64,000 bases of DNA from Eledone cirrhosa (lineage: Eukaryota): NCBI GenBank assembly GCA_964016885.1, contig OZ024743.1:178064001-178128000 (forward strand). Direction: 5' to 3'. Position 1 is the first letter of the stretch. Each line of letters starts with the position of its first letter. The notes beneath the pieces were generated by a model. It was given only the letters and a program-made list of their open reading frames with translations. It did no database searches and was not told the origin of the DNA. Positions 22,749 to 64,000 of this stretch are shown piece by piece. The position numbers and the translations under genes were made by a program.

Positions 22749-22785
<37 letters not shown>

Positions 22786-22981
22786 TATACATACATACAT
22801 ATACATATATATATATATATATATACATATATATACATATATACATACATACACATACATATATATATATATACACATATACATACATACATACATATAC
22901 ACAAACACATACATACATATACCTACATAAATATACACACATAAAACACATATACACACAAACATATATATACATATATAC

Positions 22982-23050
<69 letters not shown>

Positions 23051-23268
23051 TACACATATACACATATACAAACAAATATATACACATACAAGTAAATAGG
23101 TACTCAATAAATATACGCATATACACAGGCACATAAAGACACCTCTACAGGCAGAAAATGTAGATACGAAAGAGGTACTCACATGACCATAGTGGCCGTA
23201 TTTCAGGTTGAGGAGGGGTGGGGGTAGGGTGGGGAGGAGGTATAGGGGCCAGTAGGGGGAGGTCGTTT

Positions 23269-24432: not shown

Positions 24433-24602
24433 AAAAAAACATAAATAAATATAAATAAAAATAAAAATTAACTATAGCTTTGTAGAATTAGCTTTTAATG
24501 AATTCCCTTTTCTATCAACCAATGACCTGCACCCATCCAACTCCCCACCCTCTCCTACCACTTGTAGAGACCTATAAATACCATATTTATTTTTTGATAC
24601 CC

Positions 24603-34894: not shown

Positions 34895-35609
34895 CACACA
34901 TTATGTACATCATGCAAAAGCCTTCGTGACAACGTAAATGCGAACACAACACGGTTTTTTCAATCGAGTGTGTTTTCTTTTTGGTTTAAAATATGATAAA
35001 AGCAAATTCATGTCATCATATCGCTCTAGGAAAAGAAATTTATACTTCAAAGATTTTTTTAAAATCCCTTCTATTGAGTTACAGTTTATCAGAAATATGT
35101 ATAGCAAACACATTCAAGAGGTTCTCCAGCTTTTACAAGACGTTGATAGTCTTTTATTGTTAGCTGCCGATGTGAATTGACATTTGGGAATAGACATTTG
35201 GGAAAAAGAAACAAGCCACAGATATTTCTTCTCTCAACACAATATATTTTAATAAGATAGTAGAATGTTACGTTGTAATCAACATTTATATAACAGCTAT
35301 TTCAAAAATCTATCCTGGTGTATTAAAAAGTTTGCTTACCAGCCTTGTGATTTTGAATTTGTTCTCTATTGTGGATCCTTTGTCCGGTGTATTCTACCAT
35401 AACCTCGAATTAACAATGCTTCAAATAAACTGTACGCCAGTAAAGATGCTGCTGTCTGTTCGTCTTATGTAACTATGTTCATTTTCTCTTGACTCTATCC
35501 GTAGGTGTGAATAGGAAAAAGGAAAACGCTGCTAAATCGGGAAGAGAGCAGAAATTATATTATTTATTTATGTTCATACACCGAACAGAGGTGCTGCCCA
35601 TATATATAT

Positions 35610-35659
<50 letters not shown>

Positions 35660-35770
35660 GTATAAGTGCCTAAAGAAAGGTCACAGATTTGATGACTCTT
35701 GAATTCTGGATATATGGTCACTATTTATTGAGCCATAAAACCTTGGGTAGCACCATTGTTCCGTGTATGA

Positions 35771-35774
<4 letters not shown>

Positions 35775-35826
<52 letters not shown>
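35775..35826. repeat. (TAA)n tract, left boundary of the LINE chain
   Basis: Read directly; further tracts at 41679-41742, 44558-44585, 49878-49905, 53201-53276, 55789-55867, 58383-58434 and 61324-61356. Confidence 0.95.
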
Positions 35827-35827
<1 letters not shown>

Positions 35828-36064
35828 TTTTCTTTATTAACCACAAGGGTTCACATAAAGTAGACATTAATGACAGTACAGTACAGGACGGTACAAATGG
35901 GCCTTTCTGCGTGTAAAAAAACAGAGGTTGAAATAAAATAACAAAGAAAAATTCCCCAATAGGGGGGAGACTTCCAAGGGACATTTGTGGAGAAAGCCCA
36001 TTAAAAGACCACAGTGGCCCTGACCACCAGGGCAAGTGCCCTCTCCCAGTTTTCCACCTTTAAT

Positions 36065-39000
36065 TTACAGACACATACTCAGAGAAGGCCCATTCATTCG
36101 GGCCATACTTGCTTCTCTCACCCATCTTTCAACAAAATGCTGGGAAGAGAGCACTTCCCTCTCTACCCTGATTTTCCTTTTCAAATGAAATTTGAAAAAG
36201 TTAATCAGGGCATCACCGAAGAGGTAAGTGCTCGTCTTCAGCCCTTTCAAACGTGTCCACCATACTATCTCTTTCGCCATGGCCACCAGACAGATAAAAA
36301 CTGCTTGCCCTTCCAGGCTAAAGGAAGGGGGCGGGGCAATCCTCACGATGGACTCAGCTGATAGCTGGATCGGTCCTACACGTGACAGCAGGTGTTCGAC
36401 ATAAACCCACAAGTGAGCAATGCTCGGACACTGGACGAGTGCGTGCAGGACGGTTTCGTCGCCCTGCGCGCATCTCGGACATGCCCGGCTGACGGCACCT
36501 CCATGCCTGTAGAGTTTATCCCGAACTAGCAAAGCTCCTCGGTAGCACTGCCAGGCCAGGGATTTCTGGAAGATGTCCATAGGCCCCGGCCCGAAAGTCC
36601 TTCCGAAGAGATTGGCTAGTTGATTTTCGTCGACGCCTAGAGTTTCTCCAAGTACGTCGTCGCTCTTCCCCTCCACTAATCCCCTATAGAACGCCAAGGT
36701 GGAGTTTCCACCGATCACATTGCCCGATTGGTCGAGGGCTGTGAGCGCCTGAAGACATTCCAGTCTCCAAGCGCTCCCTCTCGGTCTTCGCTTGACCCAG
36801 GACTGCAGCTCCGTCAAGGAGACGAGCTGGGGAAAAACGTGTCTTGCAAACGGCGACCACACCTGATCACCGCCGAGGAAGAGGTGGAGATGTCGTAGCC
36901 TGAGCGCGTGTCTGCGCATCATCAGCCACAGCATGCCCAGCCCTCCACGTAGCGGGTGTTGACAGCAGATGGACCGCCTGACCATCGGAGCGAGTCCCTT
37001 CCACAAGAAGCGAAAGAGCAAACGCTCCAGCGCAGTCAGGCGGGGCTTAGGACAAGGTACGACGGTCAGGCGGTAGTAGATCACGGATGCGATGTACGCA
37101 TTCGCCACCTCCGCTCGACCTTTCAGGGATAGCTTCCTCTCGGCCCATTTCTGGGTGAGAGAAGCCACCCTGCTCGTCACCTCGTCCCAGTTTTTGTCCG
37201 TCTGGAGGTCTGGACCGAACCAGACCCCTAGCAATTTAACCGGTCCGTCCGTCCAGCGCCCGACGACGCTGTTGGACGGCATGGACCTGCCTCTCCAGGT
37301 GCCGAGCTGCAGGCCCACTGACTTTTCCTGGTTGATCATTGCTCCTGTCACCGCTTCGTATTCTCTTAGTGTAGTGCCGATCGCCTCGATGTGTTTGGCG
37401 TTCGACACCACTACGGTGACATCGTCGGCATATGCTGACACGGATCTTCCGCATCCTAGTTCGCGCGGGACCCCCCTCAACGTCTCCAGTTTGTGCAGTA
37501 ATGGCTCGAGAGTCAATACGTACAATAGGCACGAGAGGGGACATCCTTGGCGGACCGAGCGCATGATGTTCAACGGTTCCGAAAGGTGACCGTTCACTCT
37601 CACTACAGAGCAGATGTCGCTGTGCATGGCAGCGATCCAGCCTCTGAAGACGGGCCCAAAGCCAGCCGCCCTCAGGACTGCCGCTAGGTAACGATGGTCG
37701 ACCCTATCGAAGGCTTTCGACTGATCTAAATTGATCAAAGACCCACCCGTGCCAGGTTCCCTAGCTACCCTCTCTACGATGTATCGCATGAGGTGGAGGT
37801 TGTCGTGGATGGATCTGTCGGGAATGGCGCATGTCTGTGCCTCTCCCACCAGACCACCAATGACAAGCGCCAACCTCTTTGCTAGCACCTTGGCCAAAAT
37901 CTTGAACTCTGTGTTTAGCAGAGTTATGGGCCTAAAATTATCTATGTTACCCCCCTTGTTCGGATCCTTTCTCAGCAGCGCCACCGCTCCTCGGCTCACA
38001 GAGCTGGGAATTCTCCCGTTCTGTTGCCAGTTGCAGTAGACGTCCGCCAAGAGGCCTCCGAACAAGTTTGGCATTTGTACGTAAAGTTCATAGGGCAGAC
38101 CATCCAAACCAGGCGATTCCCCCCTTGTGCAACTAGTCATTGCATCCCGTACTTCAGCGGTTGTTATCGGCTTTTCGCAACACTCCGCCTCAGTGGCCGA
38201 AAGCCGCGGCAGTCCGTCGAGGTAGACACTAAAGTCCATCCCTCGATCCGGCCCGCCACTGCCCCCGAACAGTTGAGCGAAGTGTCGCTGAAAAGCTTCA
38301 CACATTTGCCCGGGATCGAGTAGCATGCGCCCGTCGTGGTCCACCAAAGACCGGATCGTGGCTTTGTTGCCACGACGCGCCTCCGCCACTCGGGCCCATT
38401 CAACGGCTTTCGTCCCCTCGTGTCTGAGAGCACGCACCCTAGCTCTGACAACGCAGCCTTTGTGCTTTGCATTGAAGAATTGGTCAAGGGCCAATTTCGC
38501 CGCAAGTACGTCGGTCGCGATGCCTTTGCTAAGCGCCTCATCTAATTTTCTAACTAATTCTCCCTCTGCTCTATTTTTCTCTATTGCTAAAGTCTTACTA
38601 AACCTAATGGACTCTATTCTAATTGCTCTTTTCAGAGCAAACCACCACTTGTTGTTGACGATGGCCCCCGTCAACGCCCGCTTAACTAGTTCGCTAATCC
38701 GGTCTCTGTAGGCCTTGTGCGCTGGTAAGGACGCGTTTAGCTTCCAGTAGCCGGGTCCTCGTCTATGAAGCCTATCTAAGTCAAGCACACAGATCACGAA
38801 TTTGTGGTCCGTGTAGCTGACTATCTTGAATTATGGAAAGCCTATGCTAGACCTATCTATTTCCCTACAAAATACTCTATCTAGATATGATCTGGATGAC
38901 CCTATGCGATTTGTCCAAGTCCACATTGGTACATTCGGGAAATCCATTCGGTACCTGTCAGACAGTTCAAAACGTCTGAGCAGGTTGGTGAGACTCTTGC

Positions 39001-39484
39001 ACCCTCCTTCCCTATCCACTAATCCCACACAATCCCAGCGTGCATCTAAGATCCCGTTCCAGTCGCCCACTAACACTAAAGAGCGGGACGTTCCAAGAAA
39101 GGTCTCCAGACGCCGGAAGAAATCAGGCCGCCCTGCTCCTGTCGGGGCATAGACGGCCACTAACCTGAAAGCTTGCTCGTCTCCGCTGGTCACGTCCAGC
39201 ACCACCAACTTACCTTCTGGGTCCAGGAAGATGGCCCGTATGGCAAGATCCAAACCTCTCCGAAAAAGCACAGCAACTCCTCCCCCCGATCCCGGACGGC
39301 TGGGAGATGCGTACACATCGTAGCCGCCGAAGATCGGTGCGAAAGCCTGTGCTTCGGAGATTCTGGTCTCGCTGATGGCCACTACATCTATGTTTAGTGA
39401 CCTGAGGTCGTTGAGCAGGTGGCCCTGCTTCGATGACGACCCCAAGCCACGCGCATTTATGCTGCCTATTCTGAGTGAGGTCAT
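36065..39484 (-). pseudogene. T1 ORF2: APE endonuclease + RT + C-terminal zinc finger, with one in-frame stop at 38831-38833
   Basis: MTSLRIGSINARGL, ISET, VYAP, VGDWN, YLDR, YTDHK, PGLDG, RPITLLN, DQSKAFDRV, SVRQGCPLS, AYADD, CPRC-x8-H-x4-C; the two track ORFs are in the same frame. Confidence 0.9.
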
Positions 39485-39968
39485 GTTGGAAAGGAGGGGA
39501 AGGACGGCTTTTCCATCCTTTTTACTGCTTGTGGCCTCCTCAGGAAGGATGTCCTTATAAATCCTCCTGGAGAGTGCTTGTCGGAAGTCTCCGATGTCTT
39601 TGGGGAATTTTTGTTTTAGTGTCATGTACGTTTTCTGTGTGATGCGAGTGATTTGTATGTGTGGAGGTGGTGTGAATTTTGGGGTTGTTGTGTAGTCTTT
39701 TTCTGTGATGCTGGTGTTGTGTTGGCTGTAGTTTAATAATTGCTTGTTGTTCAAATTTAATGCTGTGTAGTGTGTATCGTTTTGGTTGTTTTGTCTTGTT
39801 TGCGTTTGTTGTGGGTTTGTTTCTGTTTCGCATTTTGGTGACTTTTGTGGTGTAGGTGATGGTGGTGTTGGAGTTAATGATGGTGATGGTGTTGGTGTTT
39901 GGGTTGATGGGGTTGGTGATGCTGGTGTGGATGGTGGCATATCTGTCCTAACTTTTTTGTTTCTTAGT

Positions 39969-41471
39969 TTATTTGTTTCCCTCTGTATTTTGTTTTTGGA
40001 GGGGGAAGGAAGAGAATTTTTTTCTTTTTTGGTTTCTTTTTTTTTTTCCGGATATCGTTTCCCACTCCTCGTCGTCGCAATCTGTCTCCAGTTGTGATAG
40101 GCCGGGGAGTGGAAAATCCTCCACAGCCGTTAGTTTTGGTTGTGGTGTGGTGGATGGTGTAGGCGCTGGTGCTAGTTCTGAAGCGTTGGGTGGTGGTGGT
40201 GTTGGTTTTGCTGGTGGTGGTAGTGGTGTTGGTTTTGCTACTGTTGCTGGGGTTGTTGCTGTTATAGTTGCTTCTGTTGTTGCTGCTACAGTTGTTGCTG
40301 CCATCTCTGCTACTGGTGGTGTTGATGGTTGTGTCACTGGGGTGGGTAGGAGAGGTGGCCTCAACCTTTTAGCCTGAGGGCAGAAAGCCCTTAGGTGGGT
40401 TCCTTCACCACAAACGACACACCTAGGTCTTCTGCCCTCGACAATTACCGTGAGGTGGCTGCCGTCAGTGAGGTCTATTACCTCTGGGATCTCCTCAATG
40501 CTTTTTTGGTCCGCTTGGATCAGGAGCTCCATCCCAGATCCGGACCAGTTTTCCTGCTTTTCTTTTGCTACTGCTATTATTTTCGTGTTGGCTTCGATGC
40601 CGGCGAGGACAGCCGCTATTAGCCAGGGAATTTCGATGGCCGGTGGAACGTGGGTCACCCTGATCTTTACGAGTCTCTGGCCACAATAGCTTGGGACGAG
40701 TGTGAGGTCGTCACTTTTTAATGGGGCCATGGAGTGTTCTCTAGCCTCCTCTGGTGTTTCAAAGAACACATCCACGGTTCCATACTTTTGCCCACGTCTG
40801 ATGTGGGTTTTTCTTGCCCACACATGTCCCAAAGCTTTTTGGATTTGGGACTCGGATGCCCGTTCCACTCGGCGCGATTTTACATTTATTGTTCTATACG
40901 ACACGGTGCACAGGCGCCGATGCTCCATTTTATTAGGTGGAGGGGGGGGGGTGAGGCTGACCCTGTACCCATCTTTCTTTACCATTTGTTTGGCATTTTC
41001 TAAATCTTCTTGAGTTACCGTGAACGCTTCGAATTGTTTTGCTACGATGGCGAAACTGAGGGTCGGTTTTATAATGTCATTGTTGTTGTTGTTGCTATCG
41101 TTAATATTAATTTTAGTTTCAGTTGTGGTGTTGGTGACGTCAGTCGTCTTTGGTGCGGAAGAGTCCATTTTGCTTGATTTCATTTCGACATCACGAGTTA
41201 ATTTATTTTTTTCTTCTTTTGTTTCTGTTGTCGCGGTGGTGGTGGGGGTGGTGGTTGACGCGGTGGTGGTGGTGGTGGAGGCTTTAACACCTGCAGTCAT
41301 TGGTAATGGCGGGAAATGAATGTCTGCCTGAGACAAATTTAAAATATTGTTACTGCTTATATTTTTTTTTGTGTTGGCAAACGTAGTAACATTTACAATG
41401 GTGGTGTCGGTGTGAGGTGTTATTTTGTGAGGAAGGCTTTCAGCTGCTTCGTGCAGAGGTGAAGTAGCCAT
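39969..41471 (-). CDS. T1 ORF1 (gag-like: RRM-like region + CCHC zinc knuckle + Pro/Thr-rich tail); probably frameshifted near the 40020 homopolymers
   Basis: CVVCGEGTHLRAFC = CX2CX4HX4C; upstream of ORF2; homologous to T2 ORF1. Confidence 0.8.
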   Translation of the reverse strand: MATSPLHEAAESLPHKITPHTDTTIVNVTTFANTKKNISSNNILNLSQADIHFPPLPMTAGVKASTTTTTASTTTPTTTATTETKEEKNKLTRDVEMKSSKMDSSAPKTTDVTNTTTETKININDSNNNNNDIIKPTLSFAIVAKQFEAFTVTQEDLENAKQMVKKDGYRVSLTPPPPPNKMEHRRLCTVSYRTINVKSRRVERASESQIQKALGHVWARKTHIRRGQKYGTVDVFFETPEEAREHSMAPLKSDDLTLVPSYCGQRLVKIRVTHVPPAIEIPWLIAAVLAGIEANTKIIAVAKEKQENWSGSGMELLIQADQKSIEEIPEVIDLTDGSHLTVIVEGRRPRCVVCGEGTHLRAFCPQAKRLRPPLLPTPVTQPSTPPVAEMAATTVAATTEATITATTPATVAKPTPLPPPAKPTPPPPNASELAPAPTPSTTPQPKLTAVEDFPLPGLSQLETDCDDEEWETISGKKKRNQKRKKFSSFPLQKQNTEGNK

Positions 41472-41678
41472 TTTTTTTCAAAGAAATTTTTTGATAATAA
41501 TAAAAGTTAAAATTTTGGGCACAAGGCCCAATCTTTTTGGGTGTCCTTTTCGGAAAACAATGTATGTGTGCTTATAAACAGTTAACAATAAAATTTTCCA
41601 TAAATGGCAATTTTTAACAAACAGAAATAACAAACCTTTGCGGAGCTCACGATGATACGATTTACTACGTAGGTCGCC

Positions 41679-41742
<64 letters not shown>

Positions 41743-44557
41743 GAGAACATCAAACGCCAAATAAACCTTCTCCGATCTGACATAGAAATTTTAAAAAACT
41801 ATAAAGTAGGTGAACATGTTAAACAAACTAAACTTAGAAAATTGAAAAGAAAGTACAGTATACAATCAACAAGTGACATAGGCATGCTGATAGAAATAAT
41901 CAAGCAAAAAGTGTCGGCCAAAGCTGCTCGTATAAGGCGCTTTGAAAAACGATCTAGATTCTATAAGGACAATAATATGTTCAAAACCAACCAAAGAAAC
42001 TTCTACAGAAAAATTGGTAAGTCAACAATAACTGCTAAATCAATACCATCCAAGGAGGAAGTGCAAGAATTCTGGGAAAAGATCTGGGCCGAAGAAAAAG
42101 TACATAATATACATGCCCCATGGATAGACAGACAAATGAAAGATACAGCTCACCTTGAGGAACAAATATGGGAAAATATTACAGTTGAACAGTTGCGTTT
42201 GGCTCTAAGAAAAACCAGCAAATGGAAATCCCCAGGAAAAGACAAAATACAAATTTTTTGGATAAATGCCTTCACAGAGAAGATACCATCATGGCTAGTT
42301 AACGGCATTACATTCCTGCTTCCGAAGAATGATGAGACAAACAATCCCAAAAATTACAGACCGATAACTTGCTTGACCACAATGTATAACATTTTAACAT
42401 CAGTCCTAACTGAATATACATATGACCACCTGATAACAAATGACCTATTTCCCATTGAGCAGAAAGGGTGTAAACGAGGCTCATATGGCTGTAAGGATCA
42501 GCTTTTGGTTAACAAAATGATACTGGAAGATTGTCATAATAGACACAAAAATCTATCAATTGCTTGGATAGATTATAAAAAAGCATTCGATAGTTTGCCA
42601 CACAGTTGGATTGAAAAATGTTTAGAGATTTTCAAAATATCCCCCGTTGTCAGGAGGTTTTTGTCATTCAGTATGAAGACATGGAAAACGACACTCCTTT
42701 TGAATAGTGAAACAAAATCACTGGAAGCTGGAGAAGTTAATATTAATTGTGGAATTTTTCAGGGTGACTCTTTATCACCGCTTTTATTCTGCATCGCACT
42801 TATACCATTAAGTAAAATGCTCAATGAAACAAAACATGGATATAAAGTCTATGACAAAACCATTAATCACTTGTTCTACATGGATGACCTGAAACTATTT
42901 GCAAAAAATGATGAACAATTGCAAGGGCTATTATCCACTGTGAAGCAGTTCAGTAATGACATTAAAATGGAGTTTGGACTAGATAAATGCGCCAAAGCAA
43001 CGTTCACCAGAGGAAAGCTCCTGAAGAGTTCAGACATTAATCTTGATCGAGGGAATGTGATAAGAGAACTTGATCAAGAGGAAACTTACAAATATCTAAG
43101 TGTTTGTGAAGGAGACGTAATCAAGCACTCGACAATGAGGGAAAGGATAAGGAAGGAATGTTACCGCAGAGTAAGAGCAATCTTAAGAACGGAATTGAAT
43201 GCAAGGAATAGGATCGATGCCATAAACGCGCTTGCCATACCAGTAGTAACCTACAGTTACAATGTCATCAACTGGTCAAGCACAGAGATCCGTAGGCTCG
43301 ATACAAAAATTCGAAAATTCTTAACCATGCACAGAATGCATCACCCTAAGGCAGATACAGATAGAATATATCTCCTTAGGAAAGAAGGAGGACGTGGGTT
43401 AATCCAGTTAGACATTGCGTTGAAAACTGCAACAATTGGATTATCTACATATCTAAGGGAATCACATGATTGGATGATCAAACTCGTTTTGAAACACGAA
43501 AGCATCAAAAGATCATACTCCATTACAAAAGATGCACAAAGATACAGTAATGGACTACACATTTCAGAAGTCCCATTTACTGCTGAAATGGAAAACACAG
43601 AAAAAGCAAAGCAGTTAAAAGTAACTGCAAAGAAAGAACTGCTGCATAAACTGGCTAAGAAATGGCAAGAAAAGCCTCTGTATGGAAAATGCCCAGAACG
43701 AGCTAACAATCCTGATGTTGACAAAACTTTAACCCATCAGTGGTTGGTATCCTCTGGACTGAAATCGGAGACTGAAAGACTGATTATATCAGCACGAGAT
43801 CAGTGTCTGCCAACAAAAAATTACCAAGCCAACATAATAAAAAATGGATGCAGCCCATTATGCCGTGTATGTAAAAAACAACCAGAGACCATTGACCATA
43901 TAATTTCAATGTTCAGTCCTATAGCTCCAACCGAATACCTAAACAGGCATGACAGAGCTGCACAATACATACATTGGATAATGTGTAAGCATTTTGACCT
44001 GCCCCATCAAAAGAATTGGTGGGAGCATCAACCACCTCCCATACTTGAAAAAGATCACATCTCAATCTTGTGGAACTTTAGCATCCAAACAGACCGAAAC
44101 ATAGATGCAAATGACCTGATATAATATTGAAGGACTTTAAAAAGAGGGTATGCCTGCTAATTGATATGTCCGTTCCAATAGACAAGAATGTATCTATAAA
44201 AACATTTGAAAAATTGAGCAAGTATAAGGACCTGGAGATAGAAATTGGAAAAATGTAGAAATTGAGAACTAAAACAATACCAGTGGTTGTAGGCGCTCTA
44301 GGACTGATACCTATTACTTATCGCAAATCCCCGGAAACCCGCGTATAGGAGAAATACAAAAGATAGTACTAATGGGAACTGCCCATATACTAAGGAAGAT
44401 TCTGTCAATATAAGTACATCACAAGTCTAAACACTAAAGTTGCATGTGTGAGTATGTAGGTTCTTTCTTGAACATGGCGGACCTTGTTGTCTCTTGAGGT
44501 CACTGGTTGTGACTTGGTGATAACTCGTATGAACATAAAGCAAGATAAATGCAGCTG
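41743..44557 (+). mobile_element. 5'-truncated R4/Dong-like RLE LINE, family A (defective), with (TAA)n tail
   Basis: ORF 41842-44124: [57 protein letters not shown]; ~20-aa deletion at ~42273; RLE region broken by frameshift and stops. Confidence 0.9.
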
Positions 44558-44772
44558 TAATAATAATAATAAAAATAATAATAATGATTTCATTTATTAG
44601 CCACAAGGGCCGACATGTAGGGGACAATACAAAGACAGGGACAGTGGGGGTTTACAATAAGGTCGAGTAAAAGTGCACAATGGCAAGACTAATTTAACAA
44701 TGAACCAATCCTGAACCACCCTGCGCTTCTAGAGCACCCAGGGAGAGCACCCCTCTGCTCAAGTTAGCTAGC

Positions 44773-47633: not shown

Positions 47634-47662
47634 ATTGGTAAGCTAAGAGAGAGAGGGAAGGT

Positions 47663-49653: not shown

Positions 49654-49905
49654 AATTTTTTTTGGTGTGGAAGCGATTTTTTTCGAAGTTTTTTTAAAAT
49701 AAAACTGAATATTCGGGCTTAAAGCCCGAATATTGAGAGGTATCCCTCTCTTTAAATCAATATGTGTACCTTAAGTTTCGTTAACGACAAGAAAATACAA
49801 AAAATGACACTTTAAAACAGCTTAAAGTTACGAATCTTTCCCCCGCAGATTTGTACTGTCTTCACACATGTGCGGCCATATAATAATAATAATAATAATA
49901 ATAAT

Positions 49906-52900: not shown

Positions 52901-53198
52901 GAGAAGAAGAGGGAGAAAATTAACCGATACCAGGACTTAGAGTGGGAGGTAAAAAGGATTTGGAACTGCCATGAAGTCAAAGTGGTCCCGATTGTCATAG
53001 GCGCACTAGGTACTATCTCAAAAAGTTTCCAGGGATGGTTAAAGAAAATTGGCCCCTTCACGCTTTTTGGAACACTTCAAAAGACATGCTTGCTGGGACC
53101 AGCAAGAACCCTCCGATACGTCCTGAATATCTGAGGCTTGATATTCATTTCAACAAACTTTCCAGTTAACTAACATCAATGACCGAGACTCAAAGAAT

Positions 53199-53200
<2 letters not shown>
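49906..53200 (+). mobile_element. R4/Dong-like RLE LINE family B, copy B1 (longest 5' extent; frameshifts, SINE insertion, TAG stop at 52268-52270)
   Basis: PWWKKRL, FMDDLK, CRIC-x8-H-x4-C, PD-x13-D RLE motif. Confidence 0.9.
51041..51226 (+). mobile_element. Young tRNA-derived SINE with a 13-bp TSD, inserted in B1
   Basis: A box TGGCAGTATCGG, B box GAGTTCAAATCC; TSD ATTATGTCTGAGG at 51028-51040 and 51227-51239. Confidence 0.9.
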
Positions 53201-53276
<76 letters not shown>

Positions 53277-55786
53277 TGCAAAGAGTGCAAAAATCAGGCG
53301 ATACGAGAACAGAGTCAGTCAGTATAAACAGAACCGCATGTTCGACAACAACCAGAAGATGCTGTTTGGACAGCTTGAGGGGAAAGAAAGAGGCAACGAC
53401 TTGATCCCTGGGGCGGAGCAAACTAAAACATTCTGGAGAGGAATATGGGAGCAGGATGTTAGACACAATGCCCAGGCAGGGTGGATTGAGACAGTACAGA
53501 GGGAGATCGGTGAGCAGGCACAACAACAAACTGATTTGAGTATCACAGTTGAAACTTTTAAGGGGCAGGCAAAAAAACTAACCAACTGGAAATCACCAGG
53601 CCCAGATGGTGTGCAGGGGTATTGGATTAAACATTTAACATCCCTCCACCCGAAGCTGACGGCCATGTTCAATGACTGCTTGGTGTCGGGTGAGGTGCCA
53701 GAGTGGTTGACAAAAGGTACCACAGTTCTGATAATGAAAGACCGAATCAAGGGTAATGATGTTACCAACTATAGACCTATCACATGTCTGTCCGTAATGT
53801 GGAAACTGTTGACGAGCATTGTGTCTGAGGAAATCTACCATCACCTCCACACAAACAACTTGTTACCGAACGAACAGAAAGGATGCCGAAAGAAGTCACG
53901 TGGTACAAAGGACCAGTTACTTATTGATAAGATGGTAATGGGGAATTGCAGGAGGAGACACACTGATCTTGCCATGGGATGGATAGACTACAGAAAGGCA
54001 TTTGACATGGTGCCTCATTCCTGGATCACCAAAAGCCTGGAGATCTTCAGGGTGGCAGATAACATCAGACAGTTGCTAGACAGGAGTATGGGGTCCTGGG
54101 AGACAGAGTTGACATCAACTGGAGTATCCTTGGGAAGCGTGAAGATCAAGAGAGGTATCTTCCAGGGAGATAGCCTGTCCCCTCTGTTGTTTGTCCTTGC
54201 CCTGATGCCCTTGACCATTATGCTGCGAAAAGTGAGAGCAGGATACAAGTTGGGAAGGGGAGAGCTTACCATCAATCACCTCCTCTTCATGGACGATCTT
54301 AAGCTCTTCGGGAAAAGTGAGAAGGAGTTGGATGTGCTTGTTGACACTGTCCGTATTTTCAGCAGTGATATATGTATGCAGTTTGGTATTGGTAAATGTG
54401 GAGTCATTGTGATGAAGAGGGGTAGGTTGAGCAGAAGTAACGGGATCCAGATACCAACAGGTGAGATGATAAAGGAAATTGACTCTGAGGAAGGATACAA
54501 GTATTTGGGCGTTCTGGAGGCTGATGGCATAAAGAACAAAAAAATGAAGGAATTGTTAAGAACTGAATACATTCGAAGAGTAAGGAGCGTATTGAAGTCA
54601 CATCTGAACAGCAGAAATGCCATAAGCGCAGTAAATTCCCGAGCTGTGTCTATTATTAGGTACAGTGCGGGAATTCTGAGATGGAATGTTGCTGAACAAA
54701 AGGAAATGGATAGGAAGACTAGGAAGCTATTGAATATCTACATGTTCCACAAGAGGAGTGATGTCGATAGACTCTACCTAAGGAGATCTGAGGGTGGAAG
54801 AGGTCTTATCAGCATAGAGGACTGTGTTCAGATGGAGAAAAACAACCTACACAAATAGGTGACTGATAGTAAGGAGCCAATGCTCAAAATTGTACTGAAG
54901 GAGAGGACAATAGACCAGGGGATGTCCAAGGAGGAGATAACAACAAGGAGAAAGAGCAGCCTTAAGGGAAAATCCCTTCATAGTACCTTCTTTGAGAAAA
55001 CTGAATTCAGAGATCTACAGACATGGAACTGGTTGAAAAGAGGAGACCTTAAAAAGGCGACAGAAGGAATGTTAATGGCTGCGCAAGAGCAGGCCCTCAA
55101 AACGAAGTGGTTGAAACACCATATTTACAAGGAGGAGGCTAGACCACTGTGCAGGATCTGTGGAGAGAGAGAGGAGACTGTGGCTCACATTGTATCCGAG
55201 TGTAAACACCTAGCCCAGACACACTATAAAGGCTGGAGACATGATGTGATGGGCAGCGTGATCCACTGGCACCTATGCAAAGTAAACAATTTACCACACT
55301 CTGAGAAGTGGTATGAGCATAAGCCAGAGTCGGTGATAGAAAACGATCAGGTGAAGGTGCTGTGTGATTTTAGGATACAGACGGACAAAAAACTGGAACA
55401 CAATACACCTGACCTGGTGGTTTTGGACAAAGAAAAAAGATCGTGCCTGATTGTGGATGTGGCCTGCCCATTCGACACGAGAGTGCAAGAGAAGAAGAGG
55501 GAGAAAATTAACCGATACCAGGACTTAGAGTGGGAGGTAAAAAGGATTTGGAACTGCCATGAAGTCAAAGTGGTCCCGATTGTCATAGGCGCACTAGGTA
55601 CTATCTCAAAAAGTTTCCAGGGATGGTTAAAGAAAATTGGCCCCTTCACGCTTTTTGGAACACTTCAAAAGACATGCTTGCTGGGACCAGCAAGAACCCT
55701 CCGATACGTCCTGAATATCTGAGGCTTGATATTCATTTCAACAAACTTTCCAGTTAACTAACATCAATGACCGAGACTCAAAGAAT

Positions 55787-55788
<2 letters not shown>
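53277..55788 (+). mobile_element. R4/Dong-like copy B2 (5'-truncated; TAG stop at 54856-54858)
   Basis: RT ORF to 54858, then an in-frame Zn-finger/RLE ORF 54859-55722. Confidence 0.92.
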
Positions 55789-55867
<79 letters not shown>

Positions 55868-58380
55868 TGCAAAGAGTGCAAAAATCAGGCGATACGAGAA
55901 CAGAGTCAGTCAGTATAAACAGAACCGCATGTTCGACAACAACCAGAAGATGCTGTTTGGACAGCTTGAGGGGAAAGAAAGAGGCAACGACTTGATCCCT
56001 GGGGCGGAGCAAACTAAAACATTCTGGAGAGGAATATGGGAGCAGGATGTTAGACACAATGCCCAGGCAGGGTGGATTGAGACAGTACAGAGGGAGATCG
56101 GTGAGCAGGCACAACAACAAACTGATTTGAGTATCACAGTTGAAACTTTTAAGGGGCAGGCAAAAAAACTAACCAACTGGAAATCACCAGGCCCAGATGG
56201 TGTGCAGGGGTATTGGATTAAACATTTAACATCCCTCCACCCGAAGCTGACGGCCATGTTCAATGACTGCTTGGTGTCGGGTGAGGTGCCAGAGTGGTTG
56301 ACAAAAGGTACCACAGTTCTGATAATGAAAGACCGAATCAAGGGTAATGATGTTACCAACTATAGACCTATCACATGTCTGTCCGTAATGTGGAAACTGT
56401 TGACGAGCATTGTGTCTGAGGAAATCTACCATCACCTCCACACAAACAACTTGTTACCGAACGAACAGAAAGGATGCCGAAAGAAGTCACGTGGTACAAA
56501 GGACCAGTTACTTATTGATAAGATGGTAATGGGGAATTGCAGGAGGAGACACACTGATCTTGCCATGGGATGGATAGACTACAGAAAGGCATTTGACATG
56601 GTGCCTCATTCCTGGATCACCAAAAGCCTGGAGATCTTCAGGGTGGCAGATAACATCAGACAGTTGCTAGACAGGAGTATGGGGTCCTGGGAGACAGAGT
56701 TGACATCAACTGGAGTATCCTTGGGAAGCGTGAAGATCAAGAGAGGTATCTTCCAGGGAGATAGCCTGTCCCCTCTGTTGTTTGTCCTTGCCCTGATGCC
56801 CTTGACCATTATGCTGCGAAAAGTGAGAGCAGGATACAAGTTGGGAAGGGGAGAGCTTACCATCAATCACCTCCTCTTCATGGACGATCTTAAGCTCTTC
56901 GGGAAAAGTGAGAAGGAGTTGGATGTGCTTGTTGACACTGTCCGTATTTTCAGCAGTGATATATGTATGCAGTTTGGTATTGGTAAATGTGGAGTCATTG
57001 TGATGAAGAGGGGTAGGTTGAGCAGAAGTAACGGGATCCAGATACCAACAGGTGAGATGATAAAGGAAATTGACTCTGAGGAAGGATACAAGTATTTGGG
57101 CGTTCTGGAGGCTGATGGCATAAAGAACAAAAAAATGAAGGAATTGTTAAGAACTGAATACATTCGAAGAGTAAGGAGCGTATTGAAGTCACATCTGAAC
57201 AGCAGAAATGCCATAAGCGCAGTAAATTCCCGAGCTGTGTCTATTATTAGGTACAGTGCGGGAATTCTGAGATGGAATGTTGCTGAACAAAAGGAAATGG
57301 ATAGGAAGACTAGGAAGCTATTGAATATCTACAACATGTTCCACAAGAGGAGTGATGTCGATAGACTCTACCTAAGGAGATCTGAGGGTGGAAGAGGTCT
57401 TATCAGCATAGAGGACTGTGTTCAGATGGAGAAAAACAACCTACACAAATAGGTGACTGATAGTAAGGAGCCAATGCTCAAAATTGTACTGAAGGAGAGG
57501 ACAATAGACCAGGGGATGTCCAAGGAGGAGATAACAACAAGGAGAAAGAGCAGCCTTAAGGGAAAATCCCTTCATAGTACCTTCTTTGAGAAAACTGAAT
57601 TCAGAGATCTACAGACATGGAACTGGTTGAAAAGAGGAGACCTTAAAAAGGCGACAGAAGGAATGTTAATGGCTGCGCAAGAGCAGGCCCTCAAAACGAA
57701 GTGGTTGAAACACCATATTTACAAGGAGGAGGCTAGACCACTGTGCAGGATCTGTGGAGAGAGAGAGGAGACTGTGGCTCACATTGTATCCGAGTGTAAA
57801 CACCTAGCCCAGACACACTATAAAGGCTGGAGACATGATGTGATGGGCAGCGTGATCCACTGGCACCTATGCAAAGTAAACAATTTACCACACTCTGAGA
57901 AGTGGTATGAGCATAAGCCAGAGTCGGTGATAGAAAACGATCAGGTGAAGGTGCTGTGTGATTTTAGGATACAGACGGACAAAAAACTGGAACACAATAC
58001 ACCTGACCTGGTGGTTTTGGACAAAGAAAAAAGATCGTGCCTGATTGTGGATGTGGCCTGCCCATTCGACACGAGAGTGCAAGAGAAGAAGAGGGAGAAA
58101 ATTAACCGATACCAGGACTTAGAGTGGGAGGTAAAAAGGATTTGGAACTGCCATGAAGTCAAAGTGGTCCCGATTGTCATAGGCGCACTAGGTACTATCT
58201 CAAAAAGTTTCCAGGGATGGTTAAAGAAAATTGGCCCCTTCACGCTTTTTGGAACACTTCAAAAGACATGCTTGCTGGGACCAGCAAGAACCCTCCGATA
58301 CGTCCTGAATATCTGAGGCTTGATATTCATTTCAACAAACTTTCCAGTTAACTAACATCAATGACCGAGACTCAAAGAAT

Positions 58381-58382
<2 letters not shown>
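55868..58382 (+). mobile_element. R4/Dong-like copy B3 (near-identical to B2; TAG stop at 57450-57452)
   Basis: Same 5' junction as B2; differs by a 3-bp indel (IYNMF vs IYMF). Confidence 0.92.
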
Positions 58383-58432
<50 letters not shown>

Positions 58433-58436
<4 letters not shown>

Positions 58437-61249
58437 ACCTAAGATTTGTAGACAGGAAAAAGTTAAAAGAAACAACAGCTAAGGTAAACAAAGTCATCCC
58501 ATACCTTGAGGCGAGGAGCCTTCACCAGTGCAACAATATCCTTAAAGCAACAGCAAATACGGTGAGGAAACTACTTGGTATAAAAGCGAGAGGAAACAAC
58601 AGACAAGAAAGAGCAGAGCCGTGGTGGAAGAAGCGACTGAGTGGGCAAATCGGGGAAATGAGAAATGACATAGGAAAGCTTGAGTCACTACTGAATGGGA
58701 CACTAAAAAACATAGGCACTAAAAATAGACTGGAAATAAAATACAAAACTAGGAGTAAAAAGCTAAATATTATCATAGAGGAACTGAAGCAACGCATTGT
58801 AGCAAAGAGTGCAAAAATCAGGCGATACGAGAACAGAGTCAGTCAGTATAAACAGAATCGCATGTTCGACAACAACCAGAAGATGCTGTTTGGACAGCTT
58901 GAGGGGAAAGAAAGAGGCAACGACTTGATCCCTGGGGCGGAGCAAACTAAAACATTCTGGAGAGGAATATGGGAGCAGGATGTTAGACACAATGCCCAGG
59001 CAGGGTGGATTGAGACAGTACAGAGGGAGATCGGTGAGCAGGCACAACAACAAACTGAGTTGAGTATCACAGTTGAAACTCTTAAGGGGCAGGCCAAAAA
59101 ACTAACCAACTGGAAATCACCAGGCCCAGATGGTGTGCAGGGGTATTGGATTAAACATTTAACATCCCTCCACCCGAAGCTGACGGCCATGTTCAATGAC
59201 TGCTTGGTGTCGGGTGAGGTGCCAGAGTGGTTGACAAAAGGTACCACAGTTCTGATAATGAAAGACCGAATCAAGGGTAATGATGTTACCAACTATAGAC
59301 CTATCACATGTCTGTCCGTAATGTGGAAACTGTTGACGAGCATTGTGTCTGAGGAAATCTACCATCACCTCCACACAAACAACTTGTTACCGGACGAACA
59401 GAAAGGATGCCGAAAGAAGTCACGTGGTGCAAAGGACCAGTTGCTTATTGATAAGATGGTAATGGGGAATTGCAGGAGGAGACACACTGATCTTGCCATG
59501 GGATGGATAGACTACAGAAAGGCATTTGACATGGTGCCCCATTCCTGGATCACCAAAAGCCTGGAGATCTTCAAGGTGGCAGATAACATCAGACAGTTGC
59601 TAGGCAGGAGTATGGGGTCCTGGGAGACAGAGTTGACATCAACTGGAGTATCCTTGGGAAGCGTGAAGATCAAGAGAGGTATCTTCCAGGGAGATAGCCT
59701 GTCCCCTCTGTTGTTTGTCCTTGCCCTGATGCCCTTGACCATTATGCTGCGAAAAGTGAGAGCAGGATACAAGTTGGGAAGGGGAGAGCTTACCATCAAT
59801 CACCTCCTCTTCATGGACGATCTTAAGCTCTTCGGGAAAAGTGAGAAGGAGTTGGATGTGCTTGTTGACACTCTCCGTATTTTCAGCAGTGATATATGTA
59901 TGCAGTTTGGTATTGGTAAATGTGGAGTCATTGTGATGAAGAGGGGTAGGTTGAGCAGAAGTAACGGGATCCAGATACCAACAGGTGAGATGATAAAGGA
60001 AATTGACTCTGAGGAAGGATACAAGTATTTGGGCGTTCTGGAGGCTGATGGCATAAAGAACAAAAAAATGAAGGAATTGTTAAGAACTGAATACATTCGG
60101 AGAGTAAGGAGCGTATTGAAGTCACATCTGAACAGCAGAAATGCCATAAGCGCAGTAAATTCCCGAGCTGTGTCTATTATTAGGTACAGTGCGGGAATTC
60201 TGAGATGGAATGTTGCTGAACAAAAAGAAATGGATAGGAAGACTAGGAAGCTATTGACTATCTACAACATGTTCCACAAGAGGAGTGATGTCGATAGACT
60301 CTACCTAAGGAGATCTGAGGGTGGAAGAGGTCTTATCAGCATAGAGGACTGTGTTCAGATGGAGAAAAACAACCTATACAAATACGTGACCTATAGTAAG
60401 GAGCCAATGCTCAGAACTGTACTGAAGGAGGGGACAGTAGGCCAGGGGATGTCCAAGGAGGAAATAACATCAAGGAGGAAGAGCAGCCTTAAGGGAAAAT
60501 CCCTTCATAGTACCTTCTTTGAGAAAACTGAATTTAGAGATCCACAGACATGGAACTGGTTGAGAAGAGGAGACCTCAAAAAGGCTACAGAAGGAATGCT
60601 AATGGCTGCGCAGGAGCAGGCCCTCAAAACGAAGTGGTTGAAGCATCACATTTACAAGGAGGAGGCTAGCCCACTGTGCAGGATCTGTGGAGAGAGAGAG
60701 GAGACTGTGGCTCACATTGTGTCCGAGTGTAAACACCTAGCCCAGACCCACTATAAGGGCTGGAGACACGATGTGATGGGCAGGGTGATCCACTGGCACC
60801 TGTGCAAAGTAAACAATTTACCACATTCTGAGAAATGGTATGAGCATAGGCCAGAGGCGGTGATGGAGAACAATCAGGTGAAGGTGCTGTGGGATTTTAG
60901 GATACAGACGGACAAAAAACTGGAACACAATAGACCTGACCTGGTGGTTGTGGACAAAGAAAAAAGATCGTGTCTGATTGTGGATGTGGCCTGCCCGTTC
61001 GACACGAGAGTGCAAGAGAAGGAGAGGGAGAAAATTAACCGATACCAGGACCTAAAGTGGGAGGTGAAAAGGATCTGGAACTGCCATGAAGTCAAAGTGA
61101 TCCCGATTGTCATAGGCGCACTGGGGACTATCTCCAAAAGTTTCCAGGGATGGTTAAAGAAAATCGGCCCCTTCACGCTTTTTGGAACGCTTCAAAAGGC
61201 ATGCTTGCTTGGAACAGCAAGAACCCTCCGATACGTCCTGAATATCTGA
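58433..61249 (+). CDS. Copy B4: uninterrupted 938-aa RT + CCHC + RLE endonuclease ORF (N-terminus truncated; element ends ~61323)
   Basis: [106 protein letters not shown]. Confidence 0.92.
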
Positions 61250-61356
61250 GGCTGCAGGTAGTGGCTTGATATTCAATCCAATGGACTTTCCAGTTAACCA
61301 ACATCAATGACTGAGATTCAAGGAATAACAACAATAATAATAATAATAATAATAAT

Positions 61357-63492
61357 TACAAAGAGTGCAAAAATCAGGCGATACGAGAACAGAGTCAGTC
61401 AGTATAAACAGAACCGCATGTTCGACAACAACCAGAAGATGCTGTTTGGACAGCTTGAGGGGAAAGAAAGAGGCAACGACTTGATCCCTGGGGCGGAGCA
61501 AACTAAAACATTCTGGAGAGGAATATGGGAGCAGGATGTTAGACACAATGCCCAGGCAGGGTGGATTGAGACAGTACAGAGGGAGATCGGTGAGCAGGCA
61601 CAACAACAAACTGATTTGAGTATCACAGTTGAAACTTTTAAGGGGCAGGCAAAAAAACTAACCAACTGGAAATCACCAGGCCCAGATGGTGTGCAGGGGT
61701 ATTGGATTAAACATTTAACATCCCTCCACCCGAAGCTGACGGCCATGTTCAATTACTGCTTGGTGTCGGGTGAGGTGCCAGAGTGGTTGACAAAAGGTAC
61801 CACAGTTCTGATAATGAAAGACCGAATCAAGGGTAATGATGTTACCAACTATAGACCTATCACATGTCTGTCCGTAATGTGGAAACTGTTGACGAGCATT
61901 GTGTCTGAGGAAATCTACCATCACCTCCACACAAACAACTTGTTACCGAACGAACAGAAAGGATGCCGAAAGAAGTCACGTGGTACAAAGGACCAGTTAC
62001 TTATTGATAAGATGGTAATGGGGAATTGCAGGAGGAGACACACTGATCTTGCCATGGGATGGATAGACTACAGAAAGGCATTTGACATGGTGCCTCATTC
62101 CTGGATCACCAAAAGCCTGGAGATCTTCAGGGTGGCAGATAACATCAGACAGTTGCTAGACAGGAGTATGGGGTCCTGGGAGACAGAGTTGACATCAACT
62201 GGAGTATCCTTGGGAAGCGTGAAAATCAAGAGAGGTATCTTCCAGGGAGATAGCCTGTCCCCTCTGTTGTTTGTCCTTGCCCTGATGCCCTTGACCATTA
62301 TGCTGCGAAAAGTGAGAGCAGGATACAAGTTGGGAAGGGGAGAGCTTACCATCAATCACCTCCTCTTCATGGACGATCTTAAGCTCTTTGGGAAGAGTGA
62401 GAAGGAGTTGGATGTGCTTGTTGACACTGTCCGTATTTTCAGCAGTGATATATGTATGCAATTTGGTATTAGTAAGTGTGGAGTCCTTGTGATGAAGAGG
62501 GGTAAATTGAGTAGAAGCAACGAAATCCAGGTACCAACAGGTGAGATGATAAAGGAAGTTGACACTGAAGAAGGATACAAGTATTTGGGTGTTCTGGAGG
62601 CTGATGACTTCAAGAACAAAAAAATGAAGGAATTGATAAGATCTGAATACATTCGGAGAGTAAGGAGCGTATTAAAGTCACATCTGAACAGTAGGAATGC
62701 CATAAGTGCAGTAAATTCCCGAGCTGTTTCTATTATTAGGTACAGTGCGGGAATTCTGAGATGGAATGTTGCTGAACAAAAAGAAATGGATAGGAAGACT
62801 AGGAAGTTATTGACTATCTACAACATGTTTCACAAGAAGAGTGATGTCGATAGACTCTATTTAAGGAGATCTGAAGCTGGAAGAGGTCTTATCAGCATAG
62901 AGGACTGTGTTCAGATGGAGAAAAACAACCTACACAAATACGTGACTGATAGTAGGGAGCCAATGCTCAGAATTGTACTGAAGGAGAGGACAATAGACCA
63001 GGGGATGTCCAAGGAGGAAATAACAAGAAGGAGAAAGAGCAGCCTTCATGAAAAATCCCTTCATAGTACCTTCTTTGAGAAAACGGAATTCAGAGATCCT
63101 CAGACATGGAACTGGTTGAAAAGGGGCGACCTTAAAAAGGCTACAGAAGGAATGCTAATGGCTGCGCAAGAGCAGGCCCTCAAAACGAAGTGGCTGAAAC
63201 ACCATATTTACAAGGAGGAGGCTAGCCCACTGTACAAGATCTGTGGAGAGAGAGAGGGGACTGTTGCTCACATTGTATCCGAGTGTAAACACCTAGCCCA
63301 GACTCACTATAAAGGCTGGAGACATGATGTGATGGGCAGGGTGATCCACTGGCACCTATGCAAAGTAAACAATTTACCACATTCTGAGAAGTGATATGAG
63401 CATAAGCCAGAGTCGGTGATGGAAAACAATCAGGTGAAGGTGCTGTGGGATTTTAGGATACAGACGGACAAGAAATTAGAACACAATAGGCC
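61357..63492 (+). mobile_element. R4/Dong-like copy B5 (5'- and 3'-truncated; TGA at 63392-63394; zinc finger C>Y)
   Basis: Same 5' junction as B2/B3; sequence stops at HNRP. Confidence 0.9.
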
Positions 63493-63501
63493 ATAACTAT
63501 A

Positions 63502-63682
63502 ATTGTTTCTACGTTAGGCACAAGGCCAGCAATTAACAGTTCATTACTGGTACTTTATTTTATCGACCCCGTAAGGATGAAAGGCAAAGTCAACCTCGGC
63601 GGGATTTGAACACAGATCGTAAAGGGACGTAACTATGCTGGAAAGCATGGCGTCCGACTCTCTACCGATACTGCCAAACCAC
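63502..63682 (-). mobile_element. Young tRNA-derived SINE, same subfamily as 51041-51226
   Basis: Close reverse complement of 51047-51226. Confidence 0.88.
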
Positions 63683-63694
63683 GTATAATAATAA

Positions 63695-64000
63695 TCTCCT
63701 TCTAATATATAACCAGCAATTTCTCTGTTTGTCTATCTGTCTGTCCGACAGTGGAAACACGTGCGCGCGTGCGAATATTTTTTACGCACGCGTAGAGAGA
63801 GAGTGAGAGTGAAAGAAAGAGACAGACTACGAGAGGGGGATAGCGGGAGGGAGAGAGGGAGAGAGAGTGAATAGACGCTAAAACACTTAGCTTCTACCCT
63901 CAATGAGATAGGCCTTAGGATAACAGTAGCCACCAACCTCTCTAGCGTAGATTTCTTAGACATTAATTTAGACCTTCGCCCACACACCTACAGACCCCCC
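63695..64000 (+). mobile_element. Possible 5' end of a Helitron-like element
   Basis: A|TC start, TAATATATAA and (TGTC/TGTT)n near the start, similar in layout to 7859-8509; 3' end is outside the window. Confidence 0.3.

What the first reader, a model, noticed from the sequence alone, without database searches (positions are those of the whole stretch)
35775..63695. 28-kb chain of eight LINEs from two unrelated clades, joined only by (TAA)n and with fixed opposite polarity
Seen: the order is (TAA)n-T1(-)-(TAA)n-A(+)-(TAA)n-T2(-)-(TAA)n-B1..B5(+), with no unique DNA between elements. All six RLE elements are on the TAA strand and both APE elements are on the ATT strand. Known: Dong (R4 clade) inserts in TAA repeats. 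Inference: one ancestral (TAA)n has become a self-renewing landing pad. Each insertion leaves or regenerates (TAA)n that serves the next one, and at least four element lineages share the site.
Basis: partly seen in the sequence, partly recalled or inferred. Interest (0 to 1): 0.75.

Follow-up and report, generated by a model that had tools for sequence, protein, structure and literature searches.

The report
Two LINE clades share TAA repeats
In this likely-octopus genome two unrelated kinds of jumping gene sit in the same TAA repeat facing opposite ways and stack into chains like this 28-kb one, likely because each landing leaves fresh repeat for the next, while two of the eight copies here likely arose by local recombination instead of new landings.

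Summary
The chain is real in the assembly: two APE LINEs (T1, T2; L1 group, probably Tx1) on the ATT strand and six RLE LINEs (A, B1-B5; R4/Dong-like) on the TAA strand, joined by (TAA)n tracts. The rule holds across the genome sample. 171 of 174 element ends elsewhere abut (AAT)n with the same polarity. 55 of 60 5' junctions carry the tract, so it is a target and not only a tail. 65 of 80 long tracts touch such a LINE. Growth is compatible with a memoryless process (31/52 vs 13/28, p=0.35), so 7-8-element chains are an expected tail.

Corrections: two SINE copies are in the chain and B5 lacks its 3' end. B2 and B3 are B5/B1 mosaics that share a premature stop with B1, absent from 47 other copies. 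The left flank is a repeat end with no (TAA)n in 29 paralogs, so a long ancestral tract is not supported. Public reads could not test the junctions.

This scan noted the same system on at least eight other stretches of this genome. New variant of a known kind (Dong; SART/TRAS logic). Interest 0.48.

The parts
35554..35774 (.). Older inverted-repeat (MITE-like) element whose right arm is the left flank; likely seed site
   Evidence: Arms 35554-35600 and 35744-35790 are 85% inverted matches; 29 paralogs at 79-83% have no (TAA)>=4 at this point, 2 carry the SINE there. MITE label is my inference.
35775..35826 (+). (TAA)17 tract at the 3' end of T1
35827..41678 (-). T1: full-length two-ORF APE LINE, L1 group (probably Tx1); ORF1 502 aa with one CCHC knuckle; ORF2 APE-RT-zf broken by one in-frame stop
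   Evidence: Pfam Exo_endo_phos E 9e-15, RVT_1, zf-RVT; closest solved protein L1 ORF2p E 2.6e-42 vs R2 7.8e-21; ORF1 and stop
41679..41742 (+). (AAT)21 tract, T1 5' end to A 5' end
41743..44557 (+). A: 5'-truncated RLE LINE, 38% aa identity to B, frameshifted in the endonuclease region
44558..44585 (+). (TAA)9 imperfect tract, A 3' end to T2 3' end
44586..49879 (-). T2: second APE LINE family, 76% nt identity to T1 over ORF2, decayed, with an internal deletion in the endonuclease region
49880..49905 (+). (ATA)8-9 tract, T2 5' end to B1
49906..53200 (+). B1: 5'-truncated, older-type RLE LINE of family B, with frameshifts and a premature stop
51041..51226 (+). SINE inside B1, 13-bp target duplication beginning ATTAT (51028-51040, 51227-51239); 3' end resembles those of T1 and T2
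53201..53277 (+). (TAA)25 tract
53278..55788 (+). B2: mosaic copy, 5' part like B5, 3' ~950 bp like B1
55789..55868 (+). (TAA)26 tract
55869..58382 (+). B3: tandem copy of B2, differing by one 3-bp indel
58383..58433 (+). (TAA)17 tract
58434..61327 (+). B4: youngest copy, open RT-CCHC-RLE frame, 99.97% identical to full-length copies elsewhere
61328..61357 (+). AAC/AAT tract
61358..63492 (+). B5: same 5' truncation as B2/B3, young-type 5' part, old-type 3' part, last ~390 bp missing
63493..63685 (-). Second SINE copy, sense on the ATT strand
63686..63694 (+). (TAA)3 at the SINE 5' end; right edge of the chain
63695..63886 (+). 5' end of an unrelated repeat, Helitron-like (label recalled from the A|TC start); not part of the chain
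   Evidence: 29 of 29 other copies begin TC after an A; no A, B or T sequence in the next 29 kb

Best explanation
The chain is a stack of R4/Dong-like and L1-group LINEs that sit in (TAA)n with fixed opposite polarity at most sampled sites of this genome, likely built by repeated target-primed insertions that each leave repeat on both sides, and likely lengthened here by unequal crossing-over that made B2 and B3. Shown: both ends of both clades abut the tract; the polarity; the stacking rate; the B mosaics. Inferred: the RLE enzyme nicks the ATT strand so that A and B end up sense with TAA, and the APE enzyme nicks the AAT strand so that T elements end up sense with ATT. Inferred: target duplication, a repeat tail and slippage turn one target into two, so an occupied site gains targets in proportion to its size. 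Inferred: the SINE uses the T machinery and needs only a short ATTAT seed, and a seed of that kind at the end of an older repeat could have started this chain. Inferred history of the B block: insertions B1, a young truncated copy, an old downstream copy and B4; a crossover between the young copy and B1 gave B2, a repeat of it gave B3, and a deletion crossover gave B5.
For: Ends: 171 of 174 non-self ends (6 sets of 29) abut AAT in the window's polarity. 5' junctions of 60 copies picked by their 3' ends: B 20/20 (17 truncated), A 17/20, T 18/20; one T miss is a full-length copy split by a SINE, with the tract further up. Neighbours: 120 of 174 ends have another member within 60 bp past the tract; 118 keep the polarity, and in the other 2 the tract itself flips to ATT before the T element. 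Tract-first sample: 65 of 80 V(AAT)10 tracts touch a LINE, 95 of 96 LINE calls in the expected sense; the right side is a LINE in 31/52 when the left is one and 13/28 when not, Fisher p=0.35. A geometric model with continuation 0.46-0.57 predicts roughly 20-100 chains of 7 or more LINEs (rough). SINE: 16 of 24 full-length copies in the 400-kb sample have 10-20-bp duplications, 12 starting ATTAT or TTATT. Ages differ, 96-99.97% to the best other copy fetched. Mosaics: B2 differs from B5 at 0-1 sites per 250 bp over its first ~900 bp and from B1 at 0-1 over its last ~600 bp; B1-B3 share a TAG stop absent from 47 other copies and a 3' junction absent from 42 other old-type ends. Precedent: Dong in (TAA)n (PMC7998251, PMC3812793, passages); SART and TRAS in opposite directions in one repeat (PMC7265360, passages).
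Against: No empty allele was seen, and the two flanks are not halves of one site. Target duplications of the LINEs cannot be read inside a pure repeat, and the SINE duplication count had no shuffled control. Copies were the best hits to the window's copies, so they lean young; 3 of 15 truncated A and 1 of 5 truncated T copies lack a 5' tract. Short tracts are mostly unoccupied: 3 of 20 (AAT)>=4 tracts in 400 kb touch a LINE, all at one locus, so targets are not all equal. The 80 tracts are the first 80 of 18,285, all from the start of one chromosome, and the pattern's left anchor favours B 3' and T 5' ends; p=0.35 on 80 does not exclude modest clustering. One SINE call of 8 is in the wrong sense; two LINE calls (L404, L427) rest on low-complexity sequence. 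The 14-bp 3' UTR deletion of B1-B3 also occurs in 1 of 86 other B ends. No enzyme was assayed.
Confidence: 0.8

Rival explanations
1. The tracts are only 3' tails. Each family ends in a repeat tail and inserts at loosely AT-rich sites, and tails attract later copies by RNA-DNA pairing without a sequence-specific endonuclease.
For: All 3' ends carry the repeat in a fixed phase. The SINE lands at short ATTAT seeds, not long tracts. The left seed here was probably short.
Against: 55 of 60 5' junctions, including 33 of 38 copies scored as truncated, also carry the tract. A tail cannot explain that unless the target held the repeat. Dong is reported as TAA-specific (PMC7998251, passages).
Confidence: 0.1
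2. The chain, or its B2/B3 part, is an assembly artefact: repeats joined through microsatellites, or one unit written twice.
For: B2 and B3 differ only by a 3-bp indel. I do not know the read type behind the assembly.
Against: Tracts are only 28-80 bp. The same junction types occur at 120 of 174 sampled ends and in an evenly placed sample (L339). False joins would not produce B1/B5 mosaics with private mutations in register. The tracts after B1, B2 and B3 differ in length (25, 26, 17 units).
Confidence: 0.08
3. Cooperative or regionally favoured targeting: one clade's ends are a better substrate for the other, or arrays lie in permissive chromatin, so growth is faster than memoryless.
For: The point estimate is higher beside a LINE (0.60 vs 0.46). 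Long tracts cluster along C1. Short tracts are mostly empty.
Against: The difference is not significant (p=0.35). Same-clade and cross-clade neighbours are both common, with no strict alternation.
Confidence: 0.2
4. B2, B3 and B5 are independent insertions of template-switch recombinant RNAs, not DNA-level recombinants.
For: Module swaps exist in these families: T1 and T3 share ORF2 (97%) but not their 5' parts, and A and B share a 340-bp 5' UTR (80%).
Against: Three copies share one truncation point not seen in 20 other B copies. B1-B3 share a private stop and junction. The best other match to the B1 tail among fetched loci is 95.5%.
Confidence: 0.07

Closest known systems
Dong (R4 clade): B. 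mori Dong, DongAg, DongBg, Darwinula Dong1/2 (PMC3812793, PMC7998251, PMC3774820; passages read)
   Same: Single ORF with RT, CCHC and RLE; no N-terminal zinc finger; (TAA)n on the 5' side; Dong-R4 is among the recently active LINEs of Octopus vulgaris (PMC13282606, parts 1-2 of 3 read).
   Different: Two families only 38% alike share the target here and stack with a second clade. The passages read do not describe such mixed arrays.
Microsatellite-specific Tx1 families: Kibi (TC)n, Koshi (TTC)n, crocodilian (TTCC)n/(TTTC)n (PMC4494074, passages and section 15; figure 3 and supplements not seen)
   Same: Two-ORF APE LINEs of the L1 group, inserted in a microsatellite in a fixed direction; may mobilise a SINE with the same target.
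   Different: The target is (ATT)n, in a mollusc, and is shared with an RLE clade on the other strand. Tx1 membership was not tested by phylogeny.
SART and TRAS in (TTAGG)n of Bombyx mori (PMC7265360, passages)
   Same: Two LINE families enter one simple repeat in opposite directions; a few units suffice as target.
   Different: SART and TRAS both use APE and are telomeric. Here the two directions belong to unrelated nucleases (RLE vs APE), and the sites are interstitial on many chromosomes.
CUS-TR24 loci of Cuscuta europaea (PMC8091179, passages)
   Same: Long mixed arrays with (TAA)n and targeted L1-type LINEs in a biased orientation, explained by ongoing targeting.
   Different: There the LINE targets the satellite monomer, not (TAA)n, and only one lineage is involved.

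Membership tests
R4/Dong clade (A, B) | Single long ORF with RT closer to R2-type than to L1 | tested here: met
   Full-length B has one 1141-aa frame; R2 E 3.7e-32 vs L1 ORF2p (8sxt) 7.6e-14. A by 38% identity to B.
R4/Dong clade (A, B) | C-terminal CCHC plus PD..D..K restriction-like endonuclease | tested here: met
   Seen in B and in 119 of 120 homologues; degenerate and frameshifted in the window's A copy.
R4/Dong clade (A, B) | No N-terminal zinc finger | tested here: met
   0 of 85 full-length homologues by pattern; none in B.
R4/Dong clade (A, B) | Divergent N-terminal Myb/SANT-like domain (PMC7998251) | tested here: inconclusive
   Conserved four-helix domain, pLDDT 83. TRF1 Z 5.7 (rmsd 3.2, 64 aligned) and Zeste Z 5.6 (rmsd 2.3, 62 aligned) tie with unrelated chains, all under Z 8; Foldseek gave nothing at E<=0.001.
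R4/Dong clade (A, B) | Insertion in (TAA)n, sense with TAA | tested here: met
   37 of 40 5' junctions; 57 of 58 3' ends.
R4/Dong clade (A, B) | RT groups with named Dong/R4 elements in a tree | not testable with these tools
   No labelled Dong or R4 sequence was returned.
R4/Dong clade (A, B) | 5' HDV-like ribozyme (PMC3774820) | tested here: inconclusive
   Rfam scan of five loci gave only miRNA-model matches below threshold; two of them (L312, L276) lack the true 5' end and L285 was not shown to hold it; no dedicated fold was made.
L1 group (T1, T2) | ORF1 plus ORF2 with N-terminal APE, RT and C-terminal zinc-binding motif | tested here: met
Tx1 clade (T1, T2) | RT groups with Tx1L, Keno, Kibi, Koshi | not testable with these tools
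   No labelled Tx1 sequence was returned. The assignment rests on L1-group similarity, target specificity and reported L1-Tx1 activity in octopus (PMC13282606).
Tx1 clade (T1, T2) | Target-sequence preference in more than 20% of flanks (criterion of PMC4494074) | tested here: met
   57 of 58 5' ends of full-length T1 and T2; 18 of 20 copies picked by 3' end.
SART/TRAS | Both families APE-type and inserted in telomeric (TTAGG)n | tested here: not met
   One clade is RLE; the target is interstitial (AAT)n on many contigs. It works like the pair but is not a member.

The most novel reading that the evidence does not exclude
In this genome long (AAT)n tracts are mostly not free microsatellites but the product and the shared niche of an RLE clade, an APE clade and a very abundant SINE. 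The two clades split the repeat by strand, the APE clade being an (ATT)n-specific lineage that I did not find described. A short ATTAT seed is enough to start a site, which then grows by a memoryless branching process plus unequal crossing-over into 20-50-kb arrays, a candidate cause of the reported octopus TE hotspots.
Probability: 0.5. Interest if true: 0.65.

Novelty: new variant of a known kind. Interest (0 to 1): 0.48.

Why it matters
It gives thousands of natural replicates of two unrelated nucleases using one three-base repeat from opposite strands, so target choice, tail function and array growth can be tested by counting. It offers a concrete mechanism for some TE hotspots in octopus genomes, which PMC13282606 maps but does not explain. 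AAT microsatellite markers in such a genome will often have repeated flanks. Young open copies exist, so the enzymes can be assayed. Each part has a precedent, which caps the surprise.

Tried and rejected
Read support: contigs of runs X1-X3 (one sample) matched the left flank up to 35581 with no substitutions, but no listed piece bridged the first tract. X1, X2 and RAD runs X4, X5 on the B1-B4 block gave only short pieces, and the tool skips the tracts. Neither call says anything for or against contiguity.

Empty site: the outer arm of the left repeat is not found in the 29 kb right of the window, and the chain does not resume there.

Naming by homologue: the only species name among close T1 hits was Argonauta hians, 68%; cluster look-up gave no clade names; the Atlas gave no answer for two homologues.

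First 5'-junction attempts used references that crossed tracts or lacked true 5' ends and were replaced. One search was replaced (longer library, corrected tract call). Pattern (TAA)10 listed only 10 tracts and was replaced by an anchored pattern. Rfam gave no credible family for the SINE.

Literature: nine searches showed no paper on an (ATT)n-specific Tx1 or on mixed Dong/Tx1 arrays. The name Tx1-1_ACar came from an earlier scan note; the search that included it returned nothing. Repbase, Kojima and Fujiwara 2004, the original Dong paper and the supplements and figure 3 of PMC4494074 were not seen and may already hold such a family.
Full report
Observation. The window holds, from 35775 to 63694, T1(-), A(+), T2(-) and B1-B5(+) separated by (TAA)n tracts of 28-80 bp. 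RT domains were found in the seven copies scanned; B3 is 99.9% identical to B2. T1 has ORF1, an APE domain (Pfam E 9e-15; L1 endonuclease structures) and an RT closest to L1 ORF2p. T2 is 76% identical to T1 in ORF2. B4 is closest to R2 proteins and ends in CCHC and PD..D..K motifs, present in 119 of 120 homologues. A is 38% identical to B in protein; T1 and B align only over RT, at 26%. Two SINE copies belong to the chain: one inside B1 with a 13-bp duplication and one that cuts off the 3' end of B5. The host is probably an octopod: the genome is 3.0 Gb and the best named T1 homologue is from Argonauta hians.

Target or tail. I searched the genome with six element ends and took the 30 best loci of each. 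With the window's own copies removed, 171 of 174 ends abut (AAT)n in the same polarity as in the window and 3 have no tract. A 3' tract could be a tail, so I fetched 10 kb around 20 copies each of B, A and T1 chosen by their 3' ends and read the 5' junctions against full-length natural copies. The tract was there in 20 of 20 B, 17 of 20 A and 18 of 20 T copies, truncated ones included. These are best hits and lean young.

Stacking and polarity. 99 of the 174 ends have an A, B or T element and 21 the SINE within 60 bp beyond the tract. 118 of these 120 keep the polarity; in the other two the tract itself flips to ATT, and the T element still lies sense with ATT. In 400 kb sampled at even positions these LINEs covered about 4% of bases, and only 3 of 20 (AAT)>=4 tracts touched one. 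Starting from long tracts instead, 65 of the first 80 of 18,285 V(AAT)10 tracts touched a LINE and 31 had one on both sides. The chance of a LINE on the right was 31/52 with a LINE on the left and 13/28 without (p=0.35). That is what a memoryless landing pad predicts, though 80 tracts from one chromosome end cannot exclude modest clustering. With continuation 0.46-0.57, roughly 20-100 chains of seven or more LINEs are expected, so this chain is a tail case of a genome-wide process.

The seed. The left flank is the right arm of an older inverted-repeat element. Its 29 paralogs continue with a short AAATAAATAAT-type end and none has (TAA)>=4; two carry the SINE at that spot (read by eye). Full-length SINE copies elsewhere show 10-20-bp duplications in 16 of 24 cases, 12 beginning ATTAT or TTATT, and the SINE's 3' end resembles those of T1 and T2 (no shuffled control). 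I infer that the ATT-strand machinery needs only a short seed and duplicates it, and that the long tracts are largely made by the elements. The right flank begins a different repeat, which starts TC after an A in 29 of 29 other copies (Helitron-like by a recalled rule), and the missing arm of the left repeat is not in the next 29 kb. The empty site therefore cannot be rebuilt, and 'one ancestral (TAA)n' is not supported for this locus.

The B block is not five insertions. B2, B3 and B5 begin at the same position of the full-length element, not seen among 20 other B copies. B2 differs from B5 at 0-1 sites per 250 bp over its first ~900 bp and from B1 at 0-1 over its last ~600 bp, with the switch to B1 type near reference position 3516-3574. 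B1, B2 and B3 share a premature TAG absent from 47 other copies and a 3' junction absent from 42 other old-type ends; a shared 14-bp deletion also occurs in 1 of 86 other ends. The simplest history is unequal crossing-over between a young truncated copy and B1, giving B2 and then B3, with B4, 99.97% identical to full-length copies elsewhere, inserted last. B3 could also be an assembly duplicate, since it differs from B2 only by a 3-bp indel.

Mechanism. Shown: position, polarity, stacking and mosaics. Inferred from target-primed reverse transcription (established knowledge): the RLE enzyme nicks the ATT strand and the APE enzyme the AAT strand, which fixes opposite polarity; duplication, tail and slippage leave repeat on both sides, so each insertion adds a target. 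No cooperation between clades is needed by these data. Confidence 0.8.

Comparison. Dong inserts in (TAA)n in insects, molluscs and cnidarians (PMC7998251, passages; PMC3812793, passages). Tx1 families target (TC)n, (TTC)n and (TTCC)n (PMC4494074, passages and section 15). SART and TRAS enter (TTAGG)n in opposite directions (PMC7265360, passages). Dong-R4 and L1-Tx1 are recently active in Octopus vulgaris, and its TE hotspots are mapped without a mechanism (PMC13282606, parts 1-2 of 3). PMC8967140, PMC9115989, PMC4640811, PMC3774820 and PMC8091179 were read as passages. A and B meet every Dong feature I could decide; the Myb-like domain was inconclusive and no tree with named references was possible. 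T1 and T2 are L1-group by structure; Tx1 is likely but untested. Nine searches showed no report of an (ATT)n-specific Tx1 or of mixed arrays; Repbase and the supplements of PMC4494074 were not seen.

Earlier scan notes. Eight listed notes on other stretches of this genome give the same reading; they are not independent evidence. A word search for local recombination in such arrays and a search near this place returned nothing. What this locus adds is the memoryless test, the short seed and the recombinant B copies.

Verdict. Real in the assembly, general in this genome, and built from known parts in a combination I did not find in print: new variant of a known kind, interest 0.48.

Noticed in passing
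L278 and L303, first 340 bp of full-length B and A: A and B share a 5' UTR at 80% identity although their ORFs do not align as DNA (38% protein). This suggests a 5' module swap; a ribozyme there was not modelled.
   Followed up: partly
L319, L332: A T3 family shares ORF2 with T1 (97%) but has a different 5' UTR and a 714-aa ORF1 (44% to T1 ORF1), a second module swap.
   Followed up: partly
L277, L298, L304: Full-length A and B copies often have an (AAG)n run between the (AAT)n tract and their 5' end, possibly RT slippage on the element's first bases.
   Followed up: no
L423, L428, L440 (left of tract); L073, L173, L174, L389, L403, L416: Further recurrent ends beside tracts point to at least one more T-type family, so the neighbour counts are lower bounds.
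   Followed up: no
window 63887-65300 (L031): A decayed Penelope-like frame (RT end and a GIY-YIG-like stretch; label recalled) follows the Helitron-like 5' end.
   Followed up: no
window 16305-24471: A tandem duplication of about 4.2 kb, each unit with a 1.6-kb degenerate (AT/AC) repeat and a 400-aa open frame without a Pfam match.
   Followed up: no
L337, L334, L357, L360: Diverged T-like LINEs (65-81% to T1/T2) lack AAT flanks; one lies beside a (CTAT)n run, which hints at a sister family with another target.
   Followed up: no
L008, L023, L024, L026, L162: Five tracts flip from (AAT)n to (ATT)n, forming small palindromes; the elements beyond them follow the strand they touch in two cases, while L023 and L024 have a B copy directly after the ATT part.
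   Followed up: partly
random sample L334-L373: The SINE covers 1.7% of 400 kb and forms head-to-tail pairs joined by ATT repeats (also at window-equivalent 82719-83106 in L032/L033).
   Followed up: partly
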